64,000 bases of DNA from Azolla caroliniana (Eukaryota; Plantae; Polypodiophyta), in assembly GCA_043228905.1 (NCBI GenBank), contig JBHGNT010000016.1, positions 18,600,001-18,664,000 on the forward strand. Direction: 5' to 3'. The position numbers and the translations under genes are program-made. The notes beneath the pieces were generated by a model, which ran no database searches, was not told the origin of the DNA, and saw only the letters and a list, made by a program, of their open reading frames with translations. Below are positions 2,225 to 62,784 of the stretch, in pieces (the stretch's first letter is position 1; each line of letters starts with the position of its first letter).

Positions 2225-2312
2225 TGTAGCACCAAAATCATATCCTTCACCTCAACCGTCAGACAACAACTTCTTTGGTTGGTTGAGGTGAAGGATATGA
2301 TTTAGTCCTACA
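2225..2312. repeat. Inverted repeat (perfect core of ~22 bp, 23-nt loop)
   Basis: AATCATATCCTTCACCTCAACC ... GGTTGAGGTGAAGGATATGATT, extending imperfectly to TGTAG/CTACA. Confidence 0.9.
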
Positions 2313-2912
2313 CGCGTAAATCCAATCATTGGGCACATATAAATGTGGGGTAGAAACTTTAGCTGAAATGTCACACAACATATAAACGAGTTGATATAAT
2401 CAAGGAAACTTTACCACTTAGGATTGAGTTCATGCAAAGACAACCAACTCCAAAAGCTTTTTCAACAAACCACTTGTGTATCCATGTTACATGAATGGTC
2501 AAGTTGTTTTTTATACGTAAATTGTCCCTTAGTGTTGACTAGGTGTACATCGTGGCCTTCCCCACATGCATGTTTGGGAGCTTAGATGAAGGGCAACACG
2601 AGGATTAGGGTTTAGGTCAACTAGAGAGAGAGAGTTTGAGTGAGAGACAAAGGGGGAGAGAGAGAGAGAGAGAGAGATGCACGTTGTCTTGGGTATAGAG
2701 AGTGTACCACATTTTTTATTTTTAGATATTTATGTATATACAAGTAAAAAATGTGCTACGAGTGCATTTTCACTCGTGCACTAATAAAAGGCACGATGGC
2801 CCTTTATTCCCAACAACCTCCCACCTAAAGGCAGTGTGTCGTGAGAAAAAAGAAAGAAAGAAAGAAAAAAGTCAGCTAAGTCCAAGTATGTACAAAGCTG
2901 AACTACATACAT

Positions 2913-4028
2913 CTATCCAACTCCCATCATTTGTCGGCAATGAGCAAATCGCTCAGCTGGAAGACCCTTCGTGAGAAGATCTGCAGGATTATTATTTGTA
3001 TGTACTTTGACAAGCTCAATGTTCTTGTTGTCAAGTACATCTCTGATGAAGTGATACTTCACCTGTATGTGCTTCGTCTTTGCATGAAAGACGAGATTCT
3101 GAGCTAGCATGATAGCACTCTGACTATCACAATGAAGAATAGGTAACTTTGTATTGCCAATATCTCTCACTAGATATGAAAGCCATGAAGCCTCCTTGCA
3201 TGCCTCAGTGGCAACAACATACTTTGCCTCTGTAGTAGACAATGCAACACACTTTTGTAGTTTGGAGATCCAAGAGACCGCTCCTCCAATGAAAAACACA
3301 TACCCAGAAGTAGACTTTCTGCAGTCTGCGTGACCAGTATAGTCCGCATCTGTAAAACCAACGACATATGCCTTTTGATTTCCAAAGCAAATGCAACACA
3401 CTTTTGTAGTTTGGAGATCCAAGAGACCGCTCCTCCAATGAAAAACACATACCCAAAAGTAGACTTTCTGCAGTCTGCGTGACCAGTATAGTCTGCATCT
3501 GTAAAACCAACGACATATGTCTTTTGATTTCCAAAGCAAATGCACAAGTCCTTTGTGCCTTTGAGGTATCTCATAATGCCTTTCACCGCTTCCCAATGCT
3601 TTTTGTTGGGATTTTTCATGTACCTACTAACCATTCCCATTGCAAAAGCAATATCAGGGCGTGTAGCAACCATCACATATATCAAATTGCCAACAATTGA
3701 AGAATATGGAACCTTAGCCATTTCAACCTTCTCATCATCAGATGTAGGGTTGTCTTCTGCATTGAGTTTCAAATATGGAGGCAATGGAACCCCAATTGTC
3801 CCCCCCCCCCCCCCCCCCACCACCATATTGAAACGCTGCAAAACCTTAGACATATACTCTTGTTGAGATAGAAAGAGTAACCCTTTCGACCGGTTTTGGA
3901 GTATTCGCATGCCAAGGATGTGATTTGCATCACCAAGATAATTCATATCAAAGCTACCATGAAGGCTTTGCTTCAATGAATTCAAGGCATGAACATCCTT
4001 GCCAACCATCAACATATCATCAACATAC
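2913..4028 (-). pseudogene. Copia C1 RT C-terminus/RNase H, frameshifted, with 149-bp tandem duplication (3241-3540)
   Basis: ATRPDIAFA, GFTDADY..CRKSTSGYVF (twice), LHCDSQSAI, KTKHIQVKYHFIR, NPADLLTK. Confidence 0.9.
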
Positions 4029-4292
4029 TGTCAGGAATAGTACTAAAACAGAGATGGAATTAGTACTAAGAAGAGTAGTACTATTAGTACTAAGAGGACG
4101 GGACTGCGTAAGATTCCCGAGAGAGAGGAAGTGAGAAGAGGAGAGAGAGAGAAATAGGATGATGACAGCAGCTCTTATATTATATGAAAGATAAGTACAA
4201 ATCGACTAAGAGGCTTAAGACTGGTGTTGAACCAATTTGGTTCAAAACAATGCCTTGTGCCTCCTTTTATAGTGTTTTTAGGAAATAATCTT

Positions 4293-4310
4293 GAAGCTTC
4301 TAGAATGTTC
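4293..4310. promoter_or_regulatory. Heat-shock element in LTR of A (second copy 9521-9538)
   Basis: GAAgcTTCtaGAAtgTTC, four perfect alternating nGAAn units ~20 bp upstream of TATAAAAG (element orientation). Confidence 0.75.
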
Positions 4311-4386
4311 CAGAGAGATCTGGAATATACATCAATTTTCTATGATAAAGTATAAATGAAAATAATATCCTACAAAATACAATTCC

Positions 4387-4445
4387 TAATCTAATGGTAA
4401 GAGCTCGACCCATGTAGCATAAAGTCATGGGTTCGAGTCTTGCCA
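4387..4445 (+). promoter_or_regulatory. tRNA-like A-box/B-box cassette in LTR of A (second copy 9615-9673)
   Basis: TAATCTAATGG, 34 nt, then TTCGAGTC, ending GCCA; spacing equals tRNA positions 20-53. Confidence 0.6.
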
Positions 4446-4461
4446 TGACACTATCTCCCCC

Positions 4462-7400
4462 TTAAAGACGACGAGTGGAACGAGTCGGCGCTAACTGCGG
4501 ACCGGGTTTGTCCGGATACTTTCGGTGGAAATCAACAAGAAGATCTTGTGCATTGGCAACATTCTCGACGGGTTCCCAAGTACGTTCGCTCGGACTATAA
4601 CCGAGCCAATCGACCAAGTAATAAAGTTTGTTGCGAACAAGTTTGGAATCGAGGATGGCAGCAACTTCATACTCCGGGCCGTCGTCCAACTCCAGCGGGG
4701 GCGGCGGTGGTGTCACACGATCGGGAATGGTGTTTGCTTTATAAGGTTCAAGAAGAGAACAATGGAAAACCGGATGTATCTGAAGCTGCGGAGGGAGATC
4801 CAGGCGGAAGGTGACATCATTAATCTTCCCCGTAATACGGAAAGGACCGAGTCGTCGATAATCCAATTTGTCGCACGGTCGAGTAGTCTTGATGTGACGA
4901 CGTAAGAGCCATACTCGATCTTCGATGGCAAAAGAGGAGGGAATCCGATGTCGATCCGCATAAGTCTTCTGTGTGTGTTGAGCATGACGAAGGTGAGTAG
5001 AGAGATCCATCTGGATCTTGCGTAGCCTCTCCAAATGGTCCTCGGCACGAGGGTTGGTAGGTAGCTCCGGAGTGTCGATCACCGACCAGCGAGGATGGAA
5101 ACCGGTATAAGCGAGAAATGGGGAGACCCGAGTCGAGGAATGAATAGCATTATTATACGCAAACTCCGCAAAGTGGAGAATCTCGGCCCAATCGTCCTGT
5201 TGATAACTCAGGAAACACCGGAGATATTGCTCCAACGTTTGGTTTGTTCGTTCCGCCTGTCCGTCAGTTTGAGGATGGTAGCCAGAGGAGAGGTTGCAGG
5301 AGACCTTGAGCATCCTGAAGAGATGCTGCCAAAATTTGGAGACAAATTGCGGGCCTCGGTCACTGATAATACTGTCTGGTAGGCCATGATGCCGAAATAC
5401 CTCCCGCATAACAAGAGCGGCGGTTTCCTCGCTAGTGATGGCTTTAGTACATGGCACAAAATGTGCCATCTTCGTATATCGATCGACGACGGTTAGGATA
5501 GCATCGAACCCCTTTGAGACCGGCAGATCTGTAATAAAATCAAGACAAATAGACTGCCATGGCTTACTTGGAATTGGTAAAGGTTCCAACAAGCCATATG
5601 GATGGTGTCGTGGCATCTTTGCTCGGCAGCAAGCATCACAGGTCCGAACGTAATCGTCGACAAAACGGCGCATGTGGGGCCACCAAAAAGATCGCTGCAC
5701 TAACTCCAACGTCTTGGTACTACCGAAATGTCCCGCCGTATGGGTGTCGTGACAATGTTGGACGATTTGAAGGCGACAGGAGCAATCGGGGACATATACG
5801 CGCTTTTTAAAGAATAACAACCCATCATGATATTCGAATTGTCGGTAGTCAATACCTGGTTGTTGAGACTGAGAACAGGATGCCCGAGAAGTATCAATGT
5901 GCGCCAGGATGTCTTGAGCAAAACTATCCGTCTTCAAGGTTGCACGTATGTCATCGGTAATCCGTGAATCCATCGGGGTGTGAAAAATCTGCGTCGTGTG
6001 CAATCGTGTTGGTCCCAAGATTACTTGCTTTTGATTATCAAATGTTGCGTCACCAGGACGAGGTGCAAGATATGAACGCCGTGATAGTGCATCTGCTTTT
6101 CCTTGCTGCTTCCCCGGTCGATATGTGATTTCGAAGTTGAAACGCGTGAGGAATTGCGCCCACCGAGCTTGCCGTCGATTTAGTACGCGAGCGTTCTGAA
6201 AATAAGCAAGATTTTTATGATCGCTAAAGACGATGACCTGATGTGGAGAGCCCTCTAAGAAATGCCGCCATTGTACAAATGAATCCACGATGGCTAATAA
6301 CTCCTTGTCATGTATTTCGTAGTTGATTTCTGCGACATTGAATTTGCGCGAATGGAAAGCCACCGGATGCAACTCTTCTTTATCGCCTTGTTGAGAAAGG
6401 ATGCTACCGAGGGCGAAATCTGATGCGTCGGCCTCCATGATGAATGGTTTGCTTGTATCCACATGAGCTAGAATCGGTGCTGATGTAAAGGCTTTCTTAA
6501 GATGCCGAAAAGCCATATCTGCTTCGATGGACCAGAGAAATGCTTGGCCCTTCTTCGTAAGTTGTGTGAGAGGTAAAATAATCTTCGAGTAATCCTGTAT
6601 AAACTTACGGTAGAAGTTAGCAAAGCCTAGAAAACATTGTACATCTCGTACCGACCGTGGAATTTGCCACTCTAGTACAGTTTGGATTTTAGCTGGATCC
6701 ATGGCGATGCCCTTTGAGGAGATGACGTAGCCTAGAAATTCCACTTGCTTGCAGTCAAAGCTACATTTCTCTAGCTTGGCATAAAGACCATTCTCGCGGA
6801 GTCGCTTTAGTACTAATAGTACATGAGAATCGTGCTCTTCCTGGGTCTTCGAATAAATCAACAGATCATCCAGATAAATGATCAAACAGATATCCAAGAG
6901 GTCTCTGAATATATCATTTGCCATGTGTTGGAAGACTGCGGGTGCATTGGTTAGGCCAAACGGCATAACAGTATACTCGAAATGCCCATACCGCGTGCGA
7001 AAAGCGGTCTTCCACTCATCTCCCGGTCGGATCCGCACGAGATTATACGCTCCTCGTAGGTCGATTTTAGTAAAAAACTTGGCACCATTAACTCGCTCTA
7101 AAAGACTTGATATAAGAGGAAGTGCATACCTATTCCGGATGGTGACTTTATTCAATCCGCGGTAATCAACAACAAGACGAAGTGAGCCATCTTTCTTCTT
7201 GACAAAGAAGATGGGTGCACCGGCCGGAGATTTCGAATGACGGATGAACCCGCTTGCCAAGTTCTCCTCTATGTAGGCTCGAAGGACTTCTAACTCGGTG
7301 GGTGACAAGTTGTAAATTGGTCCCCATGGTGGCTCGGTTCCTGGTTGTAAATCGATGGGACAGTCATAGGGACGGTGATGAGGAAGGGTACCGGCTTTTA

Positions 7401-8043
7401 CCTTGTCAAATACATCGGCATAAGGATGATATTTTGCCGGAAGTTGTATTGAGGAGTCCTTCTTAATAGTGCTAGAAGGATGTACTGATATGGCAAATAG
7501 GAACATTGCCTCCTTGGGTCCTTCTTCGCGTAGTTGATGGAGTGAAATGGTCGAAACTCGGTGAGTTGATTCTTGGGGTGGTCGATATCGGACTTCTCTT
7601 GTTCTCCAATCTATGGCTGGATTATGTAATTCAAGCCAAGGTAATCCTAGGACAATGGGATGCTCTGGACTACTAATTATATTAAATGATATTATACACA
7701 CAAAACTACCTAGGACAACTTGAATGGGTTCTGATTCTTCTACAATATTCCCGGAAGCAATGGGACGACCATCAATGACCACTACAGATGCGGGACAAGG
7801 AAGTTTTCTTAAGGATATCTGAGAAGCTTGGGCAAAATTTCGATCCATGAAACAGGAATTAGCTCCGGAATCTAAAAGTGCTAGGACGGGTACTGGGGGA
7901 GTACTTTTAGTACTAACAATGACTTGGGCTAGGAACACATTGCTAACTTGCTTGGAAGGAATGGAACCACTAATGGGCTGTACAGATCTAGGGCTGCTGT
8001 CCAACCAAATGGCTCCTATTTTGGCTGGACTCAATCGTTTAAC
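4462..8043 (-). CDS. pol: Pol (protease-RT-RNase H-integrase-chromodomain), expressed by -1 frameshift from gag
   Basis: LLDSGA, YLDD, ADASD, HHCC zinc finger, SDRGPQF, GPF, chromodomain YEVAAILDSK..YYLVDWLGY..TWEP; 1190-codon open frame. Confidence 0.95.
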   Translation of the reverse strand, partial: VKRLSPAKIGAIWLDSSPRSVQPISGSIPSKQVSNVFLAQVIVSTKSTPPVPVLALLDSGANSCFMDRNFAQASQISLRKLPCPASVVVIDGRPIASGNIVEESEPIQVVLGSFVCIISFNIISSPEHPIVLGLPWLELHNPAIDWRTREVRYRPPQESTHRVSTISLHQLREEGPKEAMFLFAISVHPSSTIKKDSSIQLPAKYHPYADVFDKVKAGTLPHHRPYDCPIDLQPGTEPPWGPIYNLSPTELEVLRAYIEENLASGFIRHSKSPAGAPIFFVKKKDGSLRLVVDYRGLNKVTIRNRYALPLISSLLERVNGAKFFTKIDLRGAYNLVRIRPGDEWKTAFRTRYGHFEYTVMPFGLTNAPAVFQHMANDIFRDLLDICLIIYLDDLLIYSKTQEEHDSHVLLVLKRLRENGLYAKLEKCSFDCKQVEFLGYVISSKGIAMDPAKIQTVLEWQIPRSVRDVQCFLGFANFYRKFIQDYSKIILPLTQLTKKGQAFLWSIEADMAFRHLKKAFTSAPILAHVDTSKPFIMEADASDFALGSILSQQGDKEELHPVAFHSRKFNVAEINYEIHDKELLAIVDSFVQWRHFLEGSPHQVIVFSDHKNLAYFQNARVLNRRQARWAQFLTRFNFEITYRPGKQQGKADALSRRSYLAPRPGDATFDNQKQVILGPTRLHTTQIFHTPMDSRITDDIRATLKTDSFAQDILAHIDTSRASCSQSQQPGIDYRQFEYHDGLLFFKKRVYVPDCSCRLQIVQHCHDTHTAGHFGSTKTLELVQRSFWWPHMRRFVDDYVRTCDACCRAKMPRHHPYGLLEPLPIPSKPWQSICLDFITDLPVSKGFDAILTVVDRYTKMAHFVPCTKAITSEETAALVMREVFRHHGLPDSIISDRGPQFVSKFWQHLFRMLKVSCNLSSGYHPQTDGQAERTNQTLEQYLRCFLSYQQDDWAEILHFAEFAYNNAIHSSTRVSPFLAYTGFHPRWSVIDTPELPTNPRAEDHLERLRKIQMDLSTHLRHAQHTQKTYADRHRIPSSFAIEDRVWLLRRHIKTTRPCDKLDYRRLGPFRITGKINDVTFRLDLPPQLQIHPVFHCSLLEPYKANTIPDRVTPPPPPLELDDGPEYEVAAILDSKLVRNKLYYLVDWLGYSPSERTWEPVENVANAQDLLVDFHRKYPDKPGPQLAPTRSTRRL

Positions 8044-9188
8044 TCTTCATCTAATTGACTAAGGATTTCAAATTTATTTGAGATACTTGGGCTATTAGTA
8101 CTATGAATACTATCTGACACTCTATTAGTACTATTAATACTATCAGACACTCCAAAGGGAAGAATTGACTCGGGTTTAGTACAGGCGACGATTTGATTTA
8201 CCTGTCTTCTTGGCCTATGGGGACAATTGATGGCGATATGTCCTGGTCCACCGCAATAAAGACATAATCGATTGGCACGTCGTTGTTGCTTTTCTTCTTC
8301 CGATAACGGGCCGCGTCGACGCATGGTATCGATCTCCATCGGTGTCGAAGTATTTGCTTGAGGTGTGTCTCGTGCAAACGGTTTAGCCGCGACTGCGGCG
8401 TAAGTGGGCTCTGGCCTCGAGCGTGGTATCTGTAATTGACGTTCTGAACGCCGTTCAAAAAGGCGGTTGTCACATCGAACTGCTCGACTTATTGCCTCCG
8501 TAAGAGACTTTGGTTCTTCGGGGAAAGTTAGAAGTAGATCTTTGACATCGTTTCGCAAGCCATAGCGAAACTGCTCCATTAGTGCTTGATCATCCCAGGG
8601 TATATCTGAAGCAAGTAGGCGGAAATCCGCCGCGTAGGCAGAGGCTGGACGATCGCCTTGACGCAATCGCCGGATCTTGTTGATCGCCGTCCTGATGCTG
8701 TCGGTGTCTCCAAAGCAGGCTTTAAACTCACCAATAAAATCTTCAAAATTATTAAGTAAGGGTGATTGTTTTTCTAGAAGCGGAGCAAACCATGCCAAGG
8801 CTGAGCCGCTAAGTAGCGTGCCTATTAGGCCGACTCGAGATGCATCAGTGGGATATCGGGAAGGATGCATCTGGATGACTAAGCGTACCTGATTAAGGAA
8901 TCCCCGGAATTGCGAACGCGTTCCATCAAATTTCACAGGAAGTCCAATCTTGGGCTCTTTATGAAATCCTTGGGGACTGGATCCTTGTTGTTGCAACGCT
9001 GCTTCGAGTTGTTGTACCCGTAACGCTAACTCCCCATGTTGTTGTTGCGTTTGTTGTTTTTCTAGAGCGATTTGTTGCAGATCCCCTATCAGCCGTTGGT
9101 TTTCTTGTTCCAGGGCAACAAACTTTTCTTTTAGGCACTGTAACTCGGAGAAAACGGATTGGTATTCTTGGGCGCTAACAGTAGCCAT
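8031..9188 (-). CDS. gag: Gag (coiled coil, capsid, CCHC knuckle)
   Basis: 385 aa; PVKFDGTR..F, LSGSALAW, LRQG..ASAYAADF, CLYCGGPGHIAINC. Confidence 0.95.
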   Translation of the reverse strand: MATVSAQEYQSVFSELQCLKEKFVALEQENQRLIGDLQQIALEKQQTQQQHGELALRVQQLEAALQQQGSSPQGFHKEPKIGLPVKFDGTRSQFRGFLNQVRLVIQMHPSRYPTDASRVGLIGTLLSGSALAWFAPLLEKQSPLLNNFEDFIGEFKACFGDTDSIRTAINKIRRLRQGDRPASAYAADFRLLASDIPWDDQALMEQFRYGLRNDVKDLLLTFPEEPKSLTEAISRAVRCDNRLFERRSERQLQIPRSRPEPTYAAVAAKPFARDTPQANTSTPMEIDTMRRRGPLSEEEKQQRRANRLCLYCGGPGHIAINCPHRPRRQVNQIVACTKPESILPFGVSDSINSTNRVSDSIHSTNSPSISNKFEILSQLDEELND

Positions 9189-9242
9189 AGTATAGGGGAA
9201 AGGGTAGGAGGATGAGGGAGAGTGACAAGTAGGCTAGAGGAA

Positions 9243-9254
9243 AAATTGGTTCAA
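9243..9254 (-). promoter_or_regulatory. Self-priming PBS of A (TTGAACCAATTT)
   Basis: No TGG start; exactly complementary to AAATTGGTTCAA at 9466-9455, 33 nt after TATA. Confidence 0.85.
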
Positions 9255-12034
9255 ACTGTCAGGAATAGTACTAAAACAGAGATGGAATTAGTACTAAGAA
9301 GAGTAGTACTATTAGTACTAAGAGGACGGGACTGCGTAAGATTCCCGAGAGAGAGGAAGTGAGAAGAGGAGAGAGAGAGAAATAGGATGATGACAGCAGC
9401 TCTTATATTATATGAAAGATAAGTACAAATCGACTAAGAGGCTTAAGACTGGTGTTGAACCAATTTGGTTCAAAACAATGCCTTGTGCCTCCTTTTATAG
9501 TGTTTTTAGGAAATAATCTTGAAGCTTCTAGAATGTTCCAGAGAGATCTGGAATATACATCAATTTTCTATGATAAAGTATAAATGAAAATAATATCCTA
9601 CAAAATACAATTCCTAATCTAATGGTAAGAGCTCGACCCATGTAGCATAAAGTCATGGGTTCGAGTCTTGCCATGACACATACAAAACCAGGATAATCAG
9701 GCTACCATCTCCTGCCTTCTTGGTGTACAAGCAGTGGTCCACTTGACTTCTATGAAAACCTTGAGAATGTATCAAATTCATGATACCATTCTCTTGGTGC
9801 TTGTTTCAACCCATACAAACTCCTTTTGAGCTTACAAACTATATTCTCTTTGCCTTTAGCCACAAAACCTTCATGCTGCTGCATATATATGTCTTCATGC
9901 AGATCGCCATGTAAAAAGGCGGTCTTCACATTCATCTGTATGAGCTCCATTTCCCATCACCAAAGTTTGTGTGAAATCCATCATCATCTAGTTGTCCTGT
10001 GCTAATCAAGCTCTTCTTGAGCTGAGGTACATGCCATACATGCTGAAGTGTGAAAGCAGAACCATGCTGAAACTGTAATTGCACAGTGCCAATACCTACA
10101 ATTTCACATGCATAGTTGTCCCCAAGATGGGCAACACCATGTCGACCCCCTGTGTAATTTGAAAACCACTCACGATGAGGGGTGAATTGAAAAGAAGCAC
10201 CGGAATTGAGTATCCAAGTGTGCATGTCACCATCCGTATTTGCAAGTAAAGCATGTTCTCTATGGCATGAAGAGACAAAGAGTACATCATTTCCACTATC
10301 ACTATCATGAATGACTACATTCACCTCTTCAATTTTAGCATTGCCTTTCCTTGATTGAATGTCTCTCTTTTCTTCTATGAAATCATCTATCTTCTTGCCC
10401 TTTCCTTTCTCTTTCTTCCATTTGAAACAATCACATTTAAAGTGACCCTTTTTGCCACAATGATGGCATTCTACATCTTTACCACGTGATTTACTATGGC
10501 CATAACTATCAGATTTGCCTCTCTATTGTGACCTACCCCTCATATGCAATGCACTAGAGGGCTTATTGGATGCATTTTTTTGCCGACTCATCTCTTCCAT
10601 GAGTAGAGAACTCTCTACATCAGCATAAAGAAGCATCACATTTGAATTGCTCATAGAAGTCCTGAAAGTATCCCAACTTTTTTGGCAAGGTGCAAAGTAA
10701 AAACGTGGCCTTAAACTCATCTTCAATGATAAATTTCAAGGCAACCAGCTGGCTGAAAATGAAATTGAACTCACTTAGGTGAGTGGACATGGGTGTGCCC
10801 TCTGTCATGCGCAAATCCATAAGTTTCTTAAGCCAATAAACTTTGCTAGCCGCCGTATTCTAGGCATACAGTTCCTCTAGTCTAGTCCATATAGAATCTA
10901 GGAAGAGTCCAAACCTTCAATATTAAACATCAAGGCATCAGAAATTGACAACTCAATAGTCGAGTGTGCAAGGTCGTTCAACTCTTGCCAATCATCTTGG
11001 TCTATATCTATAGGCTTTACCCCTTTGACCTTAATAGGCTTTGCATGCTTCTTCTACAATCGGATGTTGTAACACTGCTTTTTCCATAACGCAAAGTTAT
11101 GTGCACTCTCAAGCTTCCTAATGTGCATAAGGTGGCTACTGTCACTGATGCTAGTCATGATTTCTTAGCCCAAACAGAGGACCAAACCTGCTTTGCAGAA
11201 AACGTGACCCGCTCTACAAAATAAAAGACATGTTTTGCAGAAAAAACGTGACTTGCTTTCAGAAAACCCTAAACCCTGCTCTGATACCAGTTTGAACGGC
11301 AACATGAGGATAGGGTTTAGGTCAGTCAAACAGGGAGAGAGTTTGAGTGAGAGAGAAAGGGGGGGGGGGGGGGGGGGGGGGAGAGAGAGAGATTGTCTTG
11401 GGTACAAAGAGTGTACCACTTTTTTGGTTTTTAGATATTATGTATATAGAAGTCAAAAATGTGCTACGAGTGCGTTCACACTTGTGCACTAATAAAAGGC
11501 ACGATGACCCTTTATTCCCAACACTTAGAGCCATCCAATTGGCAACTTATAACCAAAAACACAATCACGAATCATAACTGTTGTTGTTTCTAGAAATCTT
11601 GAAAATAGGTCCACTTAACTAAATCTGCAAAATATATAGCATTTAATTGTCATCAAAATGGCCTATATACATACATCTTTGACATGTAAACCATATAGGA
11701 TCAATGACAAGCCAAAGTGAGACAAAAGTCGATCTTGGTGGTTGCGCCATCTATCGTTTATTTGAGGTATTCACTTAAAGATTTGGCCATATCACTCGAT
11801 GATTGAATTTTTAACCATAAAAAAACTAGTAAATTAATTGAATCATACATAAATATGAGGAAATATGGCCTTATACACAAGTGATTGCCACACACATCAA
11901 CATATTAAGATATTTCAAGATGAAACTTTCAAGTGAAATTAATATATCCATGGGTGCCACTAGGCACAAATACATGTTTAATCTTACTTATATTTGAGGT
12001 TGTATCACCTCAACATGCTCATAGTAGACATATA

Positions 12035-19115: not shown

Positions 19116-19559
19116 TGTCATGGACACACCAAGCGCATACTAAGACGGAGCATGGATGATGAGGCTATGACAGAGCGATGACACGAGGAACTTAAGATGG
19201 GGAATGACACAAGAGCATAAAGATAGAGATGAAGATCAAGGAGAGAGGATGGGCGAAATGGGAATACTAGATTGATATGTCCATGACTGGCGTTGTTCAC
19301 CTTGAATTCCTTCAAGGTGAACTCAACTATTTATACTAAGTGGCATGCATACCTGTTGCACGCATGTGATACAATAGAGCATGTAGGCAGTAGGTACGCA
19401 TGCATGTGCCAAGTGTAAATAATACAAGGGAGAAATTATGCACATGATGCTAGCTAAAACCTACAATGAGGAAGTATATACATGATTATATGCTAGATGT
19501 GTGGTTAACGCATAACACTCGATTATAACATGGTCATGTCAAGAGTTCGAATCTTGACA
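19116..19559 (-). mobile_element. Solo LTR of the chromovirus lineage
   Basis: 444 bp, TGTCA..TGACA, TSD CACCC; shares R-region motif CAACGCCAGTC and the terminal B box GAGTTCGAATC. Confidence 0.85.
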
Positions 19560-21535
19560 CACCCGATATTGTTCTAGTCGGATTCAAACACGAGTCGAAT
19601 CGGCTTGTTATTGGACAATTGAATCTGTCGATTTGATTCCGATGTTGATCATAGATTTTGTGCCGATTATCTAGGTCGATCCTGATTCGGGTGACTGCAA
19701 TGATGAGAGGGACGGAGCCGACTGGTCCTCCCAAATGTCGTTCGGTCGAATGAAGCACGGATAGGGGTTGTTCCCTGGAGCTGGATCTGCTTTGAGATGT
19801 TACAACAAATGAGTAGATAGTGTCTAAACTGGTAAAGCATGATCGAGGCCAATTTGATAGAGATTCCACTCTGAGTGGCTTCATTCACAGAAGCAAGGTA
19901 TTGTTGGTTGGCTTACCTTAAGAATGATCTAGCTTGGTGGAGTGCAAATCTTCTATTCTTTTTCTCTTTTCAAGATGAGATCTTGAACTTAGGTTCTTCA
20001 AGGGAGACGAAGCAAGAATGCTAATGAAGACTGATGACAGATGGAAGCGAGTTGAAGAACCTCTGCTCTGATACAAGATGTTGTGAACTAAGGCCGTCAG
20101 TGCCGAGCATCAACACCACTTTGAGATGAAGATCACCAAGTGTACAAATGAACGCAAGATCGAAGAACAGAATGAGAGAGAGGGAGAGATCAAGAGGCAT
20201 TTTATTCAATGGTTACAATACTGTAACAATGGAGGCAACAATTCTCTTACAATATCAACAACCTTATGACCTAGGTTACAAAGCCTGTAATATACTAATT
20301 GAGCTAGGGCAACTGCCCTTTGACATATTTACATAAATGTGCTACACCTAGTTTGTCCAAGGGAACAATGTGAATACGACCATTATATGCCCATATTTGA
20401 CACTCTCTTCTGGCTACCATCCCCAAATGGATGGACAAGCAGAATGTAGAAATCAAACGCTAGAGCAATATCTTTGGTGTTTCATAAGCTATCAACAAGA
20501 TGATTGGGCAGATATATTACACTTTGCCGAATTTGCATATAATAAATTTATCCACTCCTCTATTAAGGTGACACCATTCTATGTGTATATAGGCGATCTT
20601 CCTCGTTGGTGTTTATTTGAAAATCTCGAATTACCCACGAATTCTAGTGCACAGGATCATTTGGAGTGACTACGCAAGATTTAGGCAGAACTGTCTAACC
20701 ATCTACATCAAGCCCAACAAACATAGAAGGACTATGCAGATTGTCATTGGCGTCCATCTTGTTTCGATATTGGAGATTGAGTATGACTATTACGACGGCA
20801 AGAAAAGAAAACCCGATCATGTGCCAAATTGGATTATCAAAGGCTAGGCCTTTTTATTATTAACAGAAAAATCAATGATGTCACATTTCGTCTTGATCTA
20901 CCTTCGCAATTACGGATACATCCGGTATTTTATAGTTCTCTCCTAGAACCATGTCAGAAAACCTCTATTCCAAATTGTACTACACCACCATCTCCAATTG
21001 AACTTGACGACGGACCTGAGTACGAAGTTGTTGCCATCCTCGATTCCAAGATAGTTCGTAATAAGCTCTACTATTTGGTGTATTGGTTAGGATATAGTCC
21101 AAGTGATCGTACTTGGGAACTAGTCGAGAATGTGGCAAATGCTTGAGCACTTCTTGAGGATTTCCATCGATAGTATCCAGATAAACCAGGTCCTCAGTCA
21201 AAGATGTCTCGTAAAACTTGTTGTTCAAAAGGGGGGGATAGTGTCACGATATGGCCCCAAAAAGAATTGAACCTGTGACCGTATGTTTCACAAGTTGATA
21301 CCATTAGGATAACAATTGTAATATAAAATATATTCTTTTCATTACAGAAAATTCATGTATATTCTAGATTACTTCGGAACATTCTAGAAAATTCGGGAAT
21401 ACTCTTGATAATACTATAAATAGAGGCATATGGCACTAATCAGAACCAATTCAGTTCAACGCTTATCTTAAGCCTATTAGCTATCCTTGTACTCTTTTTA
21501 TATAATATACTTCTTTGTTATCATACTTCTCTCTT

Positions 21536-21601
<66 letters not shown>

Positions 21602-21638
21602 GGACTAATCCTCTCAGTCTCTAGTACTACTCTTGACA

Positions 21639-29356: not shown

Positions 29357-29850
29357 ATCTTAAATAAAAGATAAATGCACACATATATATCGAGATCTAT
29401 ATGAGACTCTATTGGTCATAGAAAAAATTACAAGGGGACAAGTTCGATGGTCAATTGTATATGGTTTATGTATATATAGATTATCTATAAAGAGAAAACA
29501 TACATTATACATAAACACATAGGTATATTGCGCACTCACACACAACTTTGTTGGTGAGGTTCTTTGTGCATTCAACTTGTACATTCCGTAGTGTTATTTT
29601 GTTATCTTAAATAAAAGATAAATGCACACATATATATCGAGATCTATATGAGACTCTATTGGTCATAGAAAAAATTACAAGGGGACAAGTTCGATGGTCA
29701 ATTGTATATGGTTTATGTATATATAGATTATCTATAAAGAGAAAACATACATTATACATAAACACATAGGTATATTGCGCACTCACACACAACTTTGTTG
29801 GTGAGGTTCTTTGTGCATTCAACTTGTACATTCCGTAGTGTTATTTTGTT
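29357..29850. repeat. Perfect 247-bp tandem duplication
   Basis: 29357-29603 = 29604-29850; identical 74-aa ORFs in the track. Confidence 0.95.
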
Positions 29851-34700: not shown

Positions 34701-37700
34701 CGGATTTTGGCCGATGGTGCTTGAAGGCTTCACCGGGAAGAAGCTAAAGAAGGAGGAGGCGGACCTCATGGAGAGGTGGGTATGGGAGGTCACCAGATGG
34801 GACGATCCGGTAGAAGAGAAAACCGGCTCCGTGAAGGCCACGTGCTAGAAGTACAAGGTTCTAGTGGAGGACAAACAACTCGGAAAGGCTGGAGGGACCA
34901 ATCTTTTGAACCGGTACGACACTTGAAGCAGCCCAAGGAAGTCTGATGTCGATTCGGCTAACCGACAGGAGAAAGAGAAGATGAAGTTCCTGAGCTTCTG
35001 GCTGAGCTTGGAGATTGAGAAGACAACATACCTACAGAAGGTCTTAGAGGAGCGGATCTTTGAAAGCCAGGTGGAACTCTCGTTAAGGGAAGTGTTGGGC
35101 ATCGGCAAGAAGGAGTTCCACGATTCGATCATAGACCTGGTAAAGAGGAAGTGGCTCTCGACAAAGCCAGAGGTAGAGAATTCGGTCGAGGTAAAGGCGA
35201 CCCATATCGATGAGGTGGTGGTAGAGGACGAATTTGCTGACAACCGGCCTGCATTGGGTGAGGGCTATGATGGAGATACCGGTCCGGATCGGTGACGTGA
35301 TGGAGCCAATAGTAGCCTTGATCGACCATGGATCGGAGATAAACCTAATGTCCATGGACTTTTATAAAAAGGGCAAATGGCCGATCAACATGAAGCACAG
35401 ATGGAAGATATGTGTGGTGACCTGCGCTATAGAAGAGCTTCATGGAGCATGCTCGAGCGTCCAGGTGAAGGTCGGTGATTTCGAGATTGACCAACATTTC
35501 TTCGTGCAGGAGACGTCCTCGTGTCCGGTCATACTCGGTGAAGCTTACATCACGGCGGCTCATATGGAGAGCAAAGTGTTGGACAACAGTTTCGTCTATG
35601 CATAGGTGAAGAGCCAAGACGGTCGACACTGTATCCAGTTTTTGATTGTTCGGCCGAACCACGAGCGGAATCGGGACTCCCTCGGCATCGAGTGCCGAGA
35701 GGATTTTTAGAGAGGGCTATCAAGGTGTGGGGCCGCGATAGTCCGGACAGCCACCAGAAACCCCAGACTTATATTTTAGATAGGACTTTTTGGGTCTCCA
35801 GTAATGGAGGGTGTACCATAACTGACATCGGTGGCCAGGAGAAAAGACAGGTCAAAGGGCGCTTGAAGGCATGCGGAGCCTTGGGCCCTGACAACGAGAT
35901 CATTGGCATCGTGGAGGCGATCTCATTTGACAACACCCTCGAGAAGATAGGGAGGGTGATCAAAGGAGGCATGAGTGGAGTCCGGACGGTACTGGTCAAT
36001 ACCGTTGGGATGTACGAGGTCATCACGGACTTCAGAAGGATGGTTGAGTTGGGTCGAACTACTTGAGTTGACAAGAAATACAAGACTGTGGACCGGACGG
36101 TGATGCCAATCACAACACCCTTACCAGAGGAGAGCTAGGAGTGAATGACGGGGGTCGCGACCGACCCGAGTCTAGAAGATCCGTCCGACATAGGGCACCG
36201 GTTCACCGATGAGACATTGTGGAAGCTAAAGATCGGTGGGGGTGGCTTTTTACTACCAGTAGAGGAAGAAGAATTTCGGAGAATGCTCGAAAGGCATGGG
36301 AAAGCCTTCGAATTCTCGTTGGGGGAGATTGGGTGTGTTGAAACAACCATCGTCGAATTGATGGTGATATTCACGATACCACATGTACCATGGAGCTTGA
36401 AGCCAATTCTAGTTCGAAGAGCTCACATCCTGAAGCTGATGGAGCTACTCAAGGAGAAAATCGATATGGGGATCCTCGAACCGTCGAGTGCCCCTTATTC
36501 GAATTGGTGGTTCACAGTACCGAAGAAGAATGGCACCTTGCGCTTCATTCAAGACCTACAACCGGTCAACAAGGTGACCATTCGAAATGCAGGAGTCAGT
36601 TGGACAACTGATGAGTTTGTAGAGGCCTTCGCCGGAAGGTCTATCTACTTAGTTGGAGACTTGTACTCCGAGTATGATCAGTTCCAACTAGCTATCGAAA
36701 GCAGGGACATCGCAACGATGTAGACCCCTCTTGGCTTAGTTCGGATGTGTACCCTACCTCAAGGAGGCACGAATTTGGTGGCACACATGGTAAACAAGAT
36801 GAATAAGGTGCTGAGGGATTGTATCCCGGATATCACCATGGCATTCTTGGACAACATCCCGATAAAGGGGTGTTTGGAGGAAACGGAGGACGAATCAGTC
36901 GGGGAGGACCGATGTCGAAAATTCACAGCTGACCACATCGCCGACCACATCGCGACTTGCCTTCTTGGGAGAGAAATCGTCTTTTCGGCAGTCGGAGGTC
37001 ATGGTGTTCGGGTACCTATGCGGACCGTATGGTTGGAAACCGTCTCTAACAAAGGTAGAAGCCATTTCGGCCATGAAGGACGAATGCAGGTGACCTCTGA
37101 GGTTCAGCTATTCTTAGGGGCCTGTGCCTTCTACCACATCTGGATCCCACACTATGTGCATATTTTTGAGCTACTTTACGGCTTGCCAAAGAAGGGGCAG
37201 ATATTTGAGTGGCGAGAAGAGCACTTAGAGGCGGTTCGAAGACTAAAGGGAATGCTAACGGCATCACCGACTCTTCAGAAAGCCGTGTACACAAAGGAAT
37301 CTTCAATTTTCATCACGGTCGACACGAGCCCGACCGGAGTCGGAGGGTAATCAACCAGGAGGATGAAGGCGGAACAAGATTCGCCATCCGGTTCAGAGTG
37401 AATGTACTTAGTGAGCGGCAGTGAGGATATGCCCAAGTCAAGCGAGAACTTTGGGGTATTGTTTCGGCAGTCAAGAACAACAAAGATTAATTAATCGGGG
37501 TATAAGTGATAATCGAGATGGACTGCCTCTCGATTCTCGGGATGGTGTCTGGATGCACGGCTCTAGACCAGACAATGCTCAAGTGGATGGCATACATTAA
37601 GTCCCTTAATTCGGAGATATGGCACATCTCTGGAAAGGATAATGCCATGGTTGACATGCTATCGAGGTCGCAGTACAAAAACGAAGACGACATGGTATTG

Positions 37701-37830
37701 GAAGAGGAAGAAGTCGGCGTGGACTTCTTCAAATCGGCTCAATTGTCGGCGAACGGGCAAACCACATGAGGAAGACTACGATGGGGAGTAGCTTTGGATC
37801 GAACGGTTCCTGAGTTTGATGACAATGGAC
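31706..37830 (+). mobile_element. Non-chromovirus Ty3/Gypsy F: 5' LTR plus decayed gag-pol, 3'-truncated
   Basis: LTR 31706-33564 (TGTCGTGA..CGTGACA); LIDHGSEINL protease; GDLYSEYDQFQL, AFLDNIPIKG, ITVDTSPTG. Confidence 0.88.
32001..33078 (+). mobile_element. Solo LTR nested inside the F 5' LTR
   Basis: TGTCGTGAGGATTC...CCGTGACA; same termini type as host LTR; flanks ACCGT/ACGTT imperfect. Confidence 0.65.
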
Positions 37831-38880
37831 ATGTCATTGCTCCACTATCCTATTTTGTATCATTTGATGTGCCAATATTTTCTTCCGAAAGAACTTGATT
37901 GTTCGTTGTAGCAGCTATCTCCATCGGTGTTGATGTGTCAATAGAGAAGTAGAAAAAGTTTGAAAGCTGAAATTCTAGCTCCATGTTACGATGTTTCTTC
38001 CCCTCAAGTATAAATACCTACATAGCTCCAACTTTGTCACTTTGCAATTCTTCTGTCCTTTCGACATTTTCCATCTTCATGTCGCTTATATCACTGCTAG
38101 GACAATTACGATCTACACCTTGTTACTGTTTTGCATCATTTACATATCAAATAGATTGTTTTTAGTGTGGATCTTTTGTCTATCTATGTTTCCTCTTTCA
38201 CCATTGTTGTGAAGTTATTGCTTCACGATGTCAAAACAATGTCAAAAATCTATAGAAATAAATTTCCCATATGGAGCTTGTGGCGAGGAGCATATGGACA
38301 TTTTCGGTTCTTGAATCGGAGTTCAAGAGCCCAAGATACAAGCTTCGGAAGGATTAATGCTACTCGGGACACAAATGTAATTATGTCGAAAGGGGAAGTC
38401 AAAACTAAATGAGGGCTATTTCTATAATTTCTCAAATGTACAACTACAAAATTGAATTTGTAGAATCAATAAATAAAATAATAGTTCTTCTTGAGGGGCG
38501 GTAAGATATGGTGGCATCCGAAGAAATGGAATGGCTCACCACTCTAGGTGGTGACAAGGAAAGAGGACCGGTAGGAGCTTCTGTCGGAATTTCATGAGAG
38601 TCCCTGGTCCGGACATCGAGGGATGTGGGCGACATTCGAGAAGTTGAAGGAGAGGTACTAGTGGCTAGGGATGTACAAGGGTGTACACCAGTTCGTGACG
38701 ATATGCGAGAGTTGCCAAGTGCATTCCATAATTCGGCACCGAGATGAGTGTTGGTGTCAGGAACTCTATTAAGGCAGAGAAGGAATTAGTACTAAAAGAA
38801 GGATTAGTACTATTGTCGGGGAATAGTACTAAGACAGAGAAGGATTAGTACTATGAGAGGTGTCGAACTTTGAGAGAAGG

Positions 38881-38931
<51 letters not shown>

Positions 38932-39050
38932 TGATGCGAAAGATATATGTATTATATGAAGGAAGATATACAACAGTGGTTAGAAGGCTTAAGACTGGCG
39001 TTGAACCGATTTGGTTCGAACTAATGCCTTGCGCCTCCTTTTATAGTGTC

Positions 39051-39083
39051 TTCAGGAATACTCCTGAAGTTTCTAGAATGTTC
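39051..39083. promoter_or_regulatory. Heat-shock element array in LTR of B (second copy 44361-44393)
   Basis: TTCagGAAtaCTCctGAAgtTTCtaGAAtgTTC: seven in-phase units, one mismatch. Confidence 0.75.
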
Positions 39084-39157: not shown

Positions 39158-39210
39158 TAACCTAATGGTAAAGTCTCGACCCGTGTAACAAAAGGTTATG
39201 GGTTCGAGTC
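39158..39210 (+). promoter_or_regulatory. tRNA-like A/B-box cassette in LTR of B (second copy 44468-44520)
   Basis: TAACCTAATGG, 34 nt, TTCGAGTC. Confidence 0.6.
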
Positions 39211-44241: not shown

Positions 44242-47200
44242 TGATGCGAAAGATATATGTATTATATGAAGGAAGATATACAACAGTGGTTAGAAGGCTT
44301 AAGACTGGCGTTGAACCGATTTGGTTCGAACTAATGCCTTGCGCCTCCTTTTATAGTGTCTTCAGGAATACTCCTGAAGTTTCTAGAATGTTCCAGAGAA
44401 ATCTGGAATATACATCAATTTCCTAATAAAACCTAAATGAAAATAATATCCTTCAAATTACAATTCATAACCTAATGGTAAAGTCTCGACCCGTGTAACA
44501 AAAGGTTATGGGTTCGAGTCTAGTTATGACAGTTGGCATAAAAGGCCGACTCCTTCCACTTTGTATCCTAGTGTGAACTCGTCCATATAGTTAGGGCTTA
44601 GTATATAATCGATAACCTAACGTTGTAAAGAGTGTGCTTCTTGATCATTTTGGTAACAAGTCTTTGAGTTGAGAGAGAGAGAACAAAAATAGAGAGAGCT
44701 TCCGTTAAAGCGTCATCTATGTGTTTATATCTTTTTGCCTTCCTTCTGTGTTGTTTGCTGAGCATAACCGACAGATCCTCACATATGTTCCCGCGCATAT
44801 TTGTCCTTCCCCTAGTATCAGAGCGATCCGTAGCTTGGTGGCAACAAACAACAAAAAGAAAAGGCTGAAAGGAAAAAGACCAGGTTAGCAAATCTCACTT
44901 TGAAAAGAATCATGGCATCAACATCTGGTACAGGAGTTAGGATCCGAAAATTCGACGGGAAAAACTTTGCCCTATGGAAGGAGATGATGCAGGATGTACT
45001 GATTATTTGAAGACAGGTCGAGGCCATTCGACACACCGAAAAGCCTGCTTCAATGTCAACCGATGAGTGGAGATCAATGGAAAAAATCTCACGCTCCACC
45101 ATTTGAATGCACCTAGTAAAAAATTTCTACTTCAGCATGGCAAAAGAGACACCAACGTTCTCACTATGGGAGAAGCTACAAGCCGTGTATGACAAAAAGT
45201 CCTCATCTTCAAAATTGATCTTGATCAAACAACTGTTCAACATGAAGATGAGAGAGACCGATACGGCTACCTCTCACATCAACACCTTCAGCCGGGTGTT
45301 GTTAGAACTCTCTTCACAAGGGATCATTTTTGAAGAAGAAGTGAAAGCCCTTGCCCTCCTATCGAGCTTACCGATGAGTTGGGAGGTATTCTGCACGACA
45401 TACACCAATAGCTGACCGATCCTAAACTTGGATGAGACGATCGGCCAAGTCCTCACCGAGGACATTCAGTGAAAATCGATGGGACTTACCATCGATAAAT
45501 CGGCAAAAGCCCATCACTCGACCGAGTTGTTCGACTGACATTGTTGAACGAGAGAACAAGCCGATAGAACCGGTCGGAATACCAACCGATCAAAAACAAG
45601 GGGAGACTAACAATAGTCGAAGTCGAGAACAGGCCGATTAGGCGAATTCTGCACATATTGTAGAAAATGTGGCCACAATGTTTCCGACATTGGTCGATCA
45701 AGATGAAAGAGAGTGGTCGACGATTTGAGCGAAATTGAGGCCAACCTGATTCGAACCACTCTCCAGTTGGAAACCAAATCAACCTTGCTGACTCCCGATC
45801 AGGACAAATCCTCTCCTTAGAGGATTCAATGATTGGAGAAGTCCTATACTGTGCACAAGATGCACACACGTGGTTACTGGATTCCGGAGCCACATTCCAT
45901 GTGACCCCCAACATTGAATGGTTTTCGAACTATTCAGTTGGCGCCAACGGCACAGTCTGACTAGGCAATGGGCAGGAGTGCAAATTTGCAGGAACCAGAG
46001 AGGTTCCCATCTGATTGCCCAATGGCAACATGATCACCCTGCACCAACTCAAGCACGCACCCGATCTGAAAAGGAGTCTAGTCTCCATCGGTATGTTAGT
46101 CGAAGATGAGTACCGAACGAGTGTAAGTGAGTCGATATGGATGATCAACCAGGGTTTTGTTAGAATTGGGAATGGACACAAGTACAATAACCGAGGACAC
46201 AAGTCTTCACCGAGGACATTAGGCGAAAATCAATGGACTTACCATCGATGAACGAGTCATTTGACCGACATAGTAGAACGAGAGAACAAGTCGACAAAAC
46301 CAGTTTGAATACCAACCGATAAAAAACGAGGGGCCGATCAGGCGAATTCTGCACACACTGCAGAAAAGCTAGCCACAATGTTTCTGACAGTTGATCGATC
46401 AAGAGTAAAGAGAGTGGTCGGAGATCCGAGCGAAATCGAGGCCGACCCGACTCAGACCACTCTCTAGTAGGCAACCAAATCAACATTGTTGACTCCCGAT
46501 CAGGAGAAATTGTCTCCTTAGAGGATTCAATGATCGAAGAAGTTCTATATTGTGAACAAGATGCACACACATGGTTACTGAATTCCAGAGCCACATTCCA
46601 TGTGACCCCCAACATTGAATGGTTTTTGAACTATTCAGTCAACGCCAACGGCACAATCCGACTAGGCAATGGGCAGGAGTGTAGAATCGCAGGGACCGGA
46701 GAGGTTCCCATCTGATTGCCCAATGGCAACATGATCACCCTACACCAAGTCAGGCACATACCTGATTTGAAAAGGAGTCTGGTCTCCATAGGCATGTTAG
46801 CCGAAGAAGGGTATTGAATGACTCTAAGTGAGTCGATATCGATGATCAACCGGGGAAATCTCAGAATTGGGAGTGGACACAAGTACAATAACTTATACCC
46901 ATTAATGGTGATCAATCCAGAAGGGGCCGTGAACGTAGCCAAAAAGACCAACCCAAACTTATGGAATGGCCGACTCGGCCATATATCTCAAGCCAGACTC
47001 GATTGGCTGATGGCGGTTGGTTACATCCCTAAACTCCAAGCAAAGACAGACTTCTGCGAGCATTGTCGATACAGGAAACAGACCCGATTTCACACACTCT
47101 CCACTACGAGACGGTACATAAGGCCATAGAGCTCGTGCACAAATATATATGTGGGCCCATGCTAGAGCGATCACTAGGAGGCTCCCGGTACTTCATCACC

Positions 47201-62622: not shown

Positions 62623-62784
62623 TGTCATGAACACATGACCATTATGGCGTCACCCGGACTTGAACCTCGAACCTTGTAATCCATACTTGAAAACCTCAAC
62701 CATTAAGATAGCTTATTGTTATATGAAACAATATAACAAAGCTACTTCTTGAATTACATTGATTATTGTAAAAACTCTAGATTT

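What the first reader, a model, noticed from the sequence alone, without database searches (positions are those of the whole stretch)
4387..4445. Antisense tRNA-like Pol III cassette conserved at the 5' end of every chromovirus LTR
Seen: all five chromovirus LTR types carry an A-box-like and a B-box-like motif within ~90 bp of the LTR 5' end, always antisense to gag-pol. A: TAATCTAATGG-34nt-TTCGAGTC..CCA. B (39158-39210): TAACCTAATGG-34-TTCGAGTC. L (62710-62656): TATCTTAATGG-35-TTCAAGTCC. D (21311-21264): TATCCTAATGG-29-TTCAATTC. Solo LTR (~19494-19553): TAGATGTGTGG-41-TTCGAATC. The boxes, and in three cases tRNA spacing (34-35 nt), persist while the sequence between them diverges. Known: Cassandra TRIMs carry 5S Pol III promoters in their LTRs, and TFIIIC-bound B boxes can act as chromatin barriers. 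Inference: these elements carry their own TFIIIC/Pol III site. It could insulate the LTR promoter in the heterochromatin they insert into, or make antisense RNA into pol from the 3' LTR. I do not know of a description of this in Tcn1-like elements, but cannot search the literature.
Basis: partly seen in the sequence, partly recalled or inferred. Interest (0 to 1): 0.85.

Follow-up and report, generated by a model that had tools for sequence, protein, structure and literature searches.

The report
Retrotransposons carry a backwards tRNA promoter
Two groups of jumping genes, likely from mosses, keep a back-to-front copy of a tRNA gene's two promoter boxes at the outer edge of their terminal repeats while the DNA around the boxes has diverged, so the boxes likely bind the RNA polymerase III machinery and would help keep the element's own promoter open inside silenced chromatin.

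Summary
Confirmed and extended. Young self-priming Tcn1-like chromoviruses (host likely a moss) carry an antisense A-box/B-box unit in the first ~100 nt of U3: five chromovirus LTR types in the window, a sixth unassigned segment, and ten related metagenome loci. Across 15 types the boxes stay 80-89% identical and the tRNA variable loop 69%, while spacer and flanks sit at 33-36%, like saturated synonymous sites (35%). G19-T54 spacing is tRNA-like in 12 of 15. It is not a tRNA (cloverleaf lost), not the attachment site, and not explained by the hairpin (2 of 15). It is not universal: sister lineages, RLG1 and SM-Tcn1 lack it. No terminator is conserved, so a DNA-level role (TFIIIC/TFIIIB site shielding the Pol II promoter) fits better than a defined antisense RNA. 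Binding and function are untested, and no usable RNA data were available. Closest known: Helenus/Cassandra TRIMs (non-autonomous, promoter thought to drive the element). This scan noted tRNA-type boxes in fungal LTRs on other DNA before (e1-10420520, e1-9852194), but not this family.

The parts
4387..4397 (+). A box (tRNA positions 8-19) in the 3' LTR of element A, antisense to gag-pol
   Evidence: 1 mismatch to TRGYNNARYGG; 62-87% of laid depth in four runs has 4389 A>G, which removes the mismatch
4422..4426 (+). tRNA-type variable loop, positions 44-48
   Evidence: G46 in 13 of 15 and T47 in 15 of 15 types; 97-99% of laid depth has 4423 A>G
4431..4439 (+). B box core GTTCGAGTC (positions 53-61)
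   Evidence: exact match to GTTCRANYC; six core positions 89% identical over 105 pairs
4330..4379 (+). A/T-rich 50 nt upstream of the unit; inferred TFIIIB landing zone, lying between the unit and the Pol II promoter
   Evidence: 82% A/T here; higher than the rest of U3 in 14 of 14 LTRs, mean 0.78 vs 0.61
4394..4446 (+). Subfamily-specific hairpin overlapping both boxes (A and B only)
   Evidence: z -5.46 in A, -3.30 in B, -1.88 to +1.38 in the other 13
4029..4450 (-). 3' LTR of element A (TG...CA, 422 nt); Pol II TATA at about 4266-4271, self-primer motif 4226-4238
   Evidence: identical to the 5' LTR at 422 of 422 positions, TSD CATAC
4451..4466 (-). Polypurine tract of element A
4462..8046 (-). 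pol ORF of A: protease, RT, RNase H, integrase, SH3, chromodomain
   Evidence: chromodomain aromatic residues Y/W/Y present (cage positions recalled)
8031..9233 (-). gag ORF of A (stop to stop)
9245..9256 (-). Self-priming primer-binding site of A, 12-nt complement of the LTR start-site motif
   Evidence: 9-12 nt complements with matching changes in 7 of 7 elements tested
9257..9678 (-). 5' LTR of element A; A/B unit at 9615-9667 (+) points out of the element
39158..39210 (+). A/B unit in the 3' LTR (38755-39221) of element B
   Evidence: LTRs differ only in CT-repeat length, TSD GTTGG
44468..44520 (+). A/B unit in the 5' LTR (44071-44531) of element B
21264..21311 (-). A/B unit (spacer 5 nt short) in the 3' LTR (21242-21638) of truncated element D
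62657..62710 (-). A/B unit in the 5' LTR (62623-63070) of element L
19494..19553 (+). A/B unit (weak A box, spacer 7 nt long) in a solo LTR 19116-19559 of the second chromovirus group
   Evidence: TSD CACCC; LTR similar to L052, L008, L046, L068
53176..53228 (+). Sixth A/B unit, both boxes perfect, in an LTR-like segment 52646-53248 of unassigned family
   Evidence: shares a 26-nt U3 stretch with L003; no TSD found

Best explanation
Two groups of self-priming Tcn1-like chromoviruses, likely of mosses, keep a tRNA-derived A-box/B-box unit back to front at the outer edge of U3, which likely binds TFIIIC and TFIIIB and would act in cis as a heterochromatin barrier and nucleosome-poor zone for the LTR's own Pol II promoter. 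Shown: the unit, its orientation, its tRNA spacing and variable loop, its selective conservation, the A/T-rich zone upstream, loss of the cloverleaf, and no fixed terminator. Inferred: tRNA or SINE origin by capture into a 3' LTR and copying to both LTRs; factor binding; barrier effect. In the 5' LTR the unit sits between the host flank and the TATA box (85-185 nt further in), with any Pol III transcription directed away from the element, so it cannot make the genomic RNA and does not run into the Pol II promoter. About 0.85 that it is a maintained Pol III-factor site; about 0.45 for the whole mechanism.
For: Boxes 80% (A, 3' half) and 89% (B) identical vs spacer 35%, upstream 36%, downstream 33% over 105 pairs of 15 types; 79/94 vs 31/35/33% after thinning to 11 types. 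Four-fold sites of the linked pol are saturated, mean 0.35 over 66 pairs of 12 families, where the B box is 0.84. G19-T54 = 34-35 nt in 12 of 15. Motif-blind scan of U3 starts: antisense match with at most 2 mismatches in 9 of 56 (4 of 51 outside the window), sense 0 of 56, shuffles 0.7%. A/T-rich upstream in 14 of 14, as in plant tRNA genes (PMC11700998, passages). Among thousands of contigs laid on LTR A the common differences move towards the tRNA consensus and positions 15-20 show no substitution at 3% or more. Elements are young and intact and have a chromodomain, a domain linked to heterochromatin targeting (PMC7466625, passages). tDNA barriers need A box, TATA, TFIIIC and Pol III but not a given orientation (PMC2040200, passages).
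Against: No binding, chromatin or strand-specific RNA data. The unit is dispensable for Tcn1 success: absent from L008, the L009-L026 types, and by eye from RLG1 and SM-Tcn1. The A box is poor in 5 of 15 types (2-3 mismatches) and the B box is decayed in L038. Box identities are anchored on the motifs, so partly circular; one search is the blind test, and 5 of its 9 hits are the window's own. If U3 was swapped between families it is younger than pol and the four-fold benchmark overstates the case (A vs B spacer 0.82, four-fold 0.42). All ten carrier loci come from one accession block, so few hosts may be sampled. Barrier activity of Pol III sites is shown in yeasts; I found no plant demonstration in my searches.
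Confidence: 0.45

Rival explanations
1. The unit is a working Pol III promoter whose RNA matters: from the 3' LTR it would make antisense RNA across U3, the PPT and the end of pol, limiting or timing transposition (or a small hairpin RNA in the A/B subfamily).
For: Both boxes, spacing and A/T-rich upstream are kept. Strong hairpin on the antisense strand in A and B, with two G-U pairs in B that hold only on that strand.
Against: First T4 lies inside the LTR in 5 of 15 types, is over 100 nt away in 4 and absent within 600 nt in A and L046; no shared fold in 13 of 15; the 5' LTR copy would transcribe variable host flank.
Confidence: 0.2
2. A captured tRNA/SINE relic decaying as a passenger, spread recently between families by U3 exchange.
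For: Below tRNA thresholds; patchy, two groups; imperfect boxes in some types; T and D stems still partly paired, 65% and 62% vs 41% chance.
Against: Decay is not uniform: boxes 80-89% vs interleaved spacer 35% in the same 60 nt, which does not depend on the pol benchmark; family-majority letters are nearer the consensus.
Confidence: 0.12
3. The motif serves reverse transcription or integration (integrase attachment site or cDNA-end hairpin) and only resembles a promoter.
For: Lies within 100 nt of the cDNA end; B box 14 nt from the end in L052 and the solo LTR; hairpin in A and B.
Against: T54 sits 14-57 nt from the LTR end while the A-B distance stays fixed; hairpin in 2 of 15; relatives integrate without it.
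Confidence: 0.08
4. A landing pad or decoy for tRNA-targeting elements, or for self-targeted insertion (lead from note e1-10420520).
For: Pol III sites are known targets of Ty3-type elements (search listings).
Against: 0 of 5 insertion boundaries examined in the window lie within 1.7 kb of another element's unit.
Confidence: 0.07
5. TFIIIC-only site (B-box/ETC type) or binding site for a Pol II factor, working as an enhancer or nuclear-positioning signal without Pol III.
For: B box better kept than A box; three types of group 2 have weak or shifted A boxes; B-box barriers without Pol III exist (PMC2040200).
Against: A box with tRNA spacing and A/T-rich upstream retained in most types.
Confidence: 0.08

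Closest known systems
Helenus TRIMs (TRIMp3; Kojima 2024, PMC10886601; parts 1-4 of 6 read, figures and supplements not seen)
   Same: tRNA-derived sequence inside LTRs, conserved around boxes A and B, unlikely to give a functional tRNA; function unvalidated.
   Different: Helenus is non-coding, 311-1263 bp, tRNA-primed, and its boxes are proposed to drive the element's own RNA; the paper argues autonomous partners must use Pol II. Here the elements are autonomous 5.6-5.8 kb chromoviruses, self-primed, with a TATA promoter, and the unit faces away from gag-pol. The paper does say that 'not a few LTRs' in Repbase resemble part of a tRNA, without describing the non-TRIM cases in the parts read.
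Cassandra and Ajax TRIMs (5S-derived; as described in PMC10886601)
   Same: Pol III internal promoter carried in LTRs of plant or animal retroelements.
   Different: Type-1 (5S) promoter, non-autonomous, produces the element transcript.
Plant Tcn1 chromoviruses: RLG1 of Physcomitrium patens, SM-Tcn1 of Selaginella (PMC6317226, PMC7466625, PMC2864245; passages, plus SM-Tcn1 supplement whole and 400 nt of RLG1)
   Same: gag + pol with chromodomain, ~420-460 nt LTRs, 5-bp TSD, predicted self-priming; SM-Tcn1 RT and start-site motif closely resemble element A by eye.
   Different: Neither shows the antisense A/B unit by eye; the passages read do not mention one.
tDNA heterochromatin barrier at S. 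pombe cen1 (PMC2040200, passages)
   Same: A box, B box and upstream TATA/AT zone next to heterochromatin; orientation-independent. This is what the unit is proposed to work like.
   Different: A host tRNA gene with tested function; here a mobile, non-coding relic with no test.
BLV Pol III miRNA cluster (PMC12498455, passages)
   Same: Degenerate type-2 A/B boxes inside an autonomous retroelement genome.
   Different: Internal, with terminators and defined hairpin products; here in U3, antisense, no conserved terminator or fold.

Membership tests
Type-2 (tRNA-type) Pol III promoter | B box GTTCRANYC | tested here: met
   exact in 10 of 15 types by the printed cores, one mismatch in 4, decayed in 1; consensus recalled, consistent with PMC10886601
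Type-2 (tRNA-type) Pol III promoter | A box TRGYNNARYGG upstream at tRNA spacing | tested here: met
   0-1 mismatch in 10 of 15, 2-3 in 5; G19-T54 34-35 nt in 12 of 15
Type-2 (tRNA-type) Pol III promoter | A/T-rich upstream region, CAA initiator (plants) | tested here: inconclusive
   A/T-rich in 14 of 14; CAA within 20 nt of the A box in 7 of 14, no null computed
Type-2 (tRNA-type) Pol III promoter | Downstream oligo(T) terminator | tested here: not met
   T4 inside the LTR in 5 of 15; none in 600 nt for A and L046
Type-2 (tRNA-type) Pol III promoter | TFIIIC/TFIIIB/Pol III binding and transcription | not testable with these tools
   no raw RNA reads or ChIP data
tRNA gene | Cloverleaf with acceptor and anticodon stems | tested here: not met
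   acceptor 32%, anticodon 36% paired vs 41% chance; ARAGORN 0 genes in the window and 12 loci; Rfam below threshold
Helenus / TRIMp3 | tRNA-derived boxes in the LTR | tested here: met
Helenus / TRIMp3 | Short, non-coding, non-autonomous element | tested here: not met
   A and B encode full gag and pol
Helenus / TRIMp3 | Promoter placed to transcribe the element; tRNA primer site | tested here: not met
   antisense in all carriers; self-priming PBS. Helenus orientation is inferred from the text, figures not seen
Plant Tcn1 chromovirus | Chromodomain with aromatic cage on integrase | tested here: met
   PF00385 E 7e-13; Y/W/Y present (positions recalled)
Plant Tcn1 chromovirus | Self-priming PBS, no tRNA PBS | tested here: met
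   7 of 7 elements tested
Plant Tcn1 chromovirus | Clusters with reference Tcn1 in an RT-RH-INT tree | tested here: inconclusive
   no reference sequence in my trees; likeness to SM-Tcn1 judged by eye only
tDNA/TFIIIC chromatin barrier | Blocks heterochromatin spread in a reporter assay | not testable with these tools
   needs bench work

The most novel reading that the evidence does not exclude
Heterochromatin-targeting autonomous retrotransposons have domesticated a tRNA promoter as a portable, outward-facing Pol III barrier, so that every new insertion brings its own shield for its Pol II promoter; the module has spread across at least two chromovirus lineages in the same hosts and may have parallels in fungal and seed-plant LTRs.
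Probability: 0.4. Interest if true: 0.8.

Novelty: new variant of a known kind. Interest (0 to 1): 0.58.

Why it matters
How elements that insert into heterochromatin stay transcribed is an open question. A conserved, mutable 9-nt B box beside the LTR promoter, present in some lineages and absent in close sisters, makes one answer directly testable. It would also extend Pol III promoters in LTRs from non-coding TRIMs to autonomous elements, in an orientation that cannot make the element's RNA, and would scatter many potential TFIIIC sites through the host genome.

Tried and rejected
No whole genome is held, so no genome-wide LTR alignment. No RNA holder listed. In run X23 (RNA is a guess) one 116-nt contig at depth 2.8 forms a closed loop over the unit only: too weak to count. 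One search lists no difference right of 4414 although one search shows 4423 A>G in the same run X18, so its blanks over the B box are not used; one search showed 40 of 153 rows. Viral contigs: no close relatives; 5 and 10 distant loci, model R1 finds nothing in L086-L097; PPT+LTR+B-box patterns gave 2 chance phage-like matches. ESM Atlas unavailable. First idea that the 53176 unit belongs to the non-chromovirus element E was dropped: E's ORF diverges from its relative F before that segment and the segment resembles L002/L003 U3. tRNA isotype of origin not assignable. One origin versus two: not resolved (p-AU 0.18, quick tree; careful tree unfinished). One search left out 31 of 85 loci with no LTR start found (including carriers L012, L068) and 3 under 100 nt (including carrier L038). 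Distances printed for L003, L012, L046 were mis-hits; values are used. Literature: ten searches found no description of an antisense A/B unit in autonomous chromovirus LTRs; Repbase entries, subscription papers, the REXdb sequence files (too large) and five DOC supplements could not be seen and may bear on novelty.

Full report
Context. The window is a nest of LTR retrotransposons. Element A (4029-9678, minus strand) and element B (38755-44531, minus strand) are intact Ty3/gypsy elements with gag and a pol carrying protease, RT, RNase H, integrase, SH3 and chromodomain. A's LTRs are identical at 422 of 422 positions, B's differ only in a CT repeat, and both have 5-bp target-site duplications, so they are young. 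Their primer sites are complementary to a motif just downstream of the LTR TATA box, with matching changes in 7 of 7 elements tested: self-priming, as predicted for plant Tcn1 (PMC6317226, passages). I infer a moss or similar non-seed plant: plant Tcn1 is reported only from mosses and club-mosses, the element occurs in leaf metagenomes and in runs of several coded organisms, and earlier unchecked notes on this genome say the same. Tcn1 membership rests on these features and on likeness to SM-Tcn1 by eye, not on a tree with references.

Observation. Two Copia LTR pairs and two non-chromovirus gypsy LTRs in the window have no hit in that scan or with a profile of the unit.

Relatives. An alignment of SH3-chromodomain regions fetched the best 80 of 548 confirmed metagenome stretches and 5 viral-collection loci. 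Ten loci carry the unit at the same place and in the same orientation: L001-L004, L012, L038 (B box decayed), L046, L052, L068 and L051 (A side lost by rearrangement). A test blind to the motif took 150 nt after PPT+TG: 56 sequences qualified (51 loci of 85, plus 5 from the window); 9 had an antisense match with at most 2 mismatches (4 of the 51 loci), none had a sense match, and 0.7% of 840 mononucleotide shuffles did. Carriers form two groups in quick trees: A, B, D, L038, L001-L004, L012 (support 94; 9 of 9 with a readable LTR; L005 is cut 20 nt into the LTR) and L046, L052, L068 (95), whose sisters L008 and L010/L013/L014/L017 lack it (similar). One origin is not rejected (p-AU 0.18). The window's solo LTR resembles the second group, so both groups share a host. 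All ten carrier contigs come from one accession block and may represent few host species. By eye, the SM-Tcn1 LTR and the first 400 nt of the RLG1 transcript, which begin at an LTR-like end, lack the unit. It is lineage-restricted, not a Tcn1 hallmark.

Selection. Over 105 pairs of 15 LTR types, identity is 0.80 for the 3' half of the A box, 0.89 for six B-box positions and 0.69 for the variable loop, against 0.35 for the spacer between them, 0.36 upstream and 0.33 downstream; thinning to 11 types changes little. These columns are anchored on the motifs, so the box figures are partly circular, but the G19-T54 distance is 34-35 nt in 12 of 15 and G46/T47 fall in register in 13 and 15 of 15. Four-fold sites of the neighbouring pol average 0.35 over 66 pairs of 12 families. 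Against this benchmark: close pairs have U3 more alike than four-fold sites (A vs B spacer 0.82, four-fold 0.42), so U3 may be constrained overall or exchanged. Laying public contigs on LTR A (2250-4106 contigs per run in four runs) shows that most depth has 4389 A>G (62-87%) and 4423 A>G (97-99%), both towards the tRNA consensus, 9 of 17 positions upstream (4370-4386) vary at 3% or more while 4394-4400 show no substitution. B-side blanks in these tables are not used (see Tried and rejected).

What it is not. Not a tRNA: acceptor and anticodon stems pair at 32% and 36% against 41% by chance; D and T stems at 62% and 65%, partly because box positions pair; ARAGORN and Rfam do not call it. Not the attachment site: T54 lies 14-57 nt from the LTR end. 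Not the hairpin: significant in A (z -5.46) and B (-3.30) only, -1.88 to +1.38 in the other 13. No conserved product: the first T4 is inside the LTR in 5 of 15, and absent for 600 nt in A and L046. The 50 nt upstream are more A/T-rich than the rest of U3 in 14 of 14 (0.78 vs 0.61; nine non-carriers 0.43-0.67 at a comparable position), the pattern reported for plant tRNA genes (PMC11700998, passages).

Mechanism. What is kept is what the Pol III factors read in DNA (boxes, spacing, A/T-rich upstream); what is lost is what an RNA product would need (fold, terminator). I therefore favour a cis-acting DNA site. Inferred steps: a tRNA gene or tRNA-SINE was captured backwards into a 3' LTR and copied to both; TFIIIC binds the boxes and places TFIIIB on the A/T-rich zone; in the 5' LTR this complex sits between the flank and the TATA box and faces outward; it would hinder heterochromatin spreading and keep the Pol II promoter open. 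This fits a chromodomain element (RLG1 is proposed to target heterochromatin; PMC7466625, passages) and the S. pombe tDNA barrier, which needs A box, TATA and Pol III but no set orientation (PMC2040200, passages). None of these steps is shown; no usable RNA data were found. Odds: maintained Pol III-factor site about 0.85; barrier/promoter-shield 0.45; antisense RNA 0.2; relic 0.12; cDNA-level role 0.08; TFIIIC-only or Pol II factor site 0.08; landing pad 0.07 (0 of 5 insertion boundaries within 1.7 kb of another unit).

Comparison and novelty. Pol III promoters in LTRs are known from Cassandra, Ajax and Helenus; Helenus has tRNA-derived boxes, but is short, non-coding and thought to be transcribed from them, and its author argues that autonomous partners use Pol II (PMC10886601, parts 1-4 of 6). 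The present unit fails Helenus membership on autonomy, priming and orientation. Ten literature searches found no account of it; the Helenus paper notes that many Repbase LTRs resemble tRNA parts, so it may be recorded there, and REXdb and other supplements could not be opened. PMC2864245 (passages), PMC12498455 and PMC13578239 were searched by passage only. The scan's own notes list tRNA-type boxes in fungal LTRs elsewhere and nothing by sequence for this LTR. Verdict: real, selectively conserved, a new variant of a known kind with an untested but sharply testable function; interest 0.58.

Noticed in passing
window 52646-53248: LTR-like segment of unassigned family (TG...CA on minus strand, no TSD found) with a perfect + strand A/B unit and a second, oppositely oriented tRNA-like unit at about 52904-52850 on the minus strand (A box 2 mismatches, B core exact).
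   Followed up: partly
L085 4834-4890 and 5002-5056: A different chromovirus (seed-plant Tekay/Del-like by recalled features) has two A/B units in tandem in U3, in SENSE orientation; profile R1, not trained on it, hits one at E 1.7e-6. Its relatives L083 and L084 lack them.
   Followed up: partly
window 4285-4325 and equivalent U3 regions of B, D, L and L004: Arrays of nTTCnnGAAn between the A/T-rich zone and the TATA box (3-8 half-site pairs), resembling heat-shock elements (recalled); absent from most other carriers.
   Followed up: no
SM-Tcn1, supplement of PMC2864245: By eye the sequence after the 5' LTR is complementary over about 14 nt to the LTR start-site motif, i.e. self-priming, although that paper reported none; PMC6317226 later predicted self-priming for the clade.
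   Followed up: partly
window 4399-4448, run X23: A single 116-nt contig (depth 2.8, RNA status a guess) forms a closed loop covering only the unit and its upstream; could be a tandem copy, a ligation artefact or a discrete molecule.
   Followed up: no
window 4226-4238 and equivalents: The self-primer motif itself contains a B-box-like GGTTCAAC/TTCGAATC word in several families; in B it gives a weak extra A/B scan hit at 38969-39023. Probably coincidence.
   Followed up: no
window 53574-56434, 56643-59213, 36200-38750: Non-chromovirus Ty3/gypsy elements (E, F, G) nested with the chromoviruses; F's 3' LTR and the LTR at about 60900-61330 lack the unit.
   Followed up: partly
window 29357-29850: Exact 247-nt tandem duplication; may be an assembly artefact or a recent duplication.
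   Followed up: no
P0029: A close pol homologue (74% over RT-RH) carries an extra dUTPase-family Pfam hit, PF00692.
   Followed up: no
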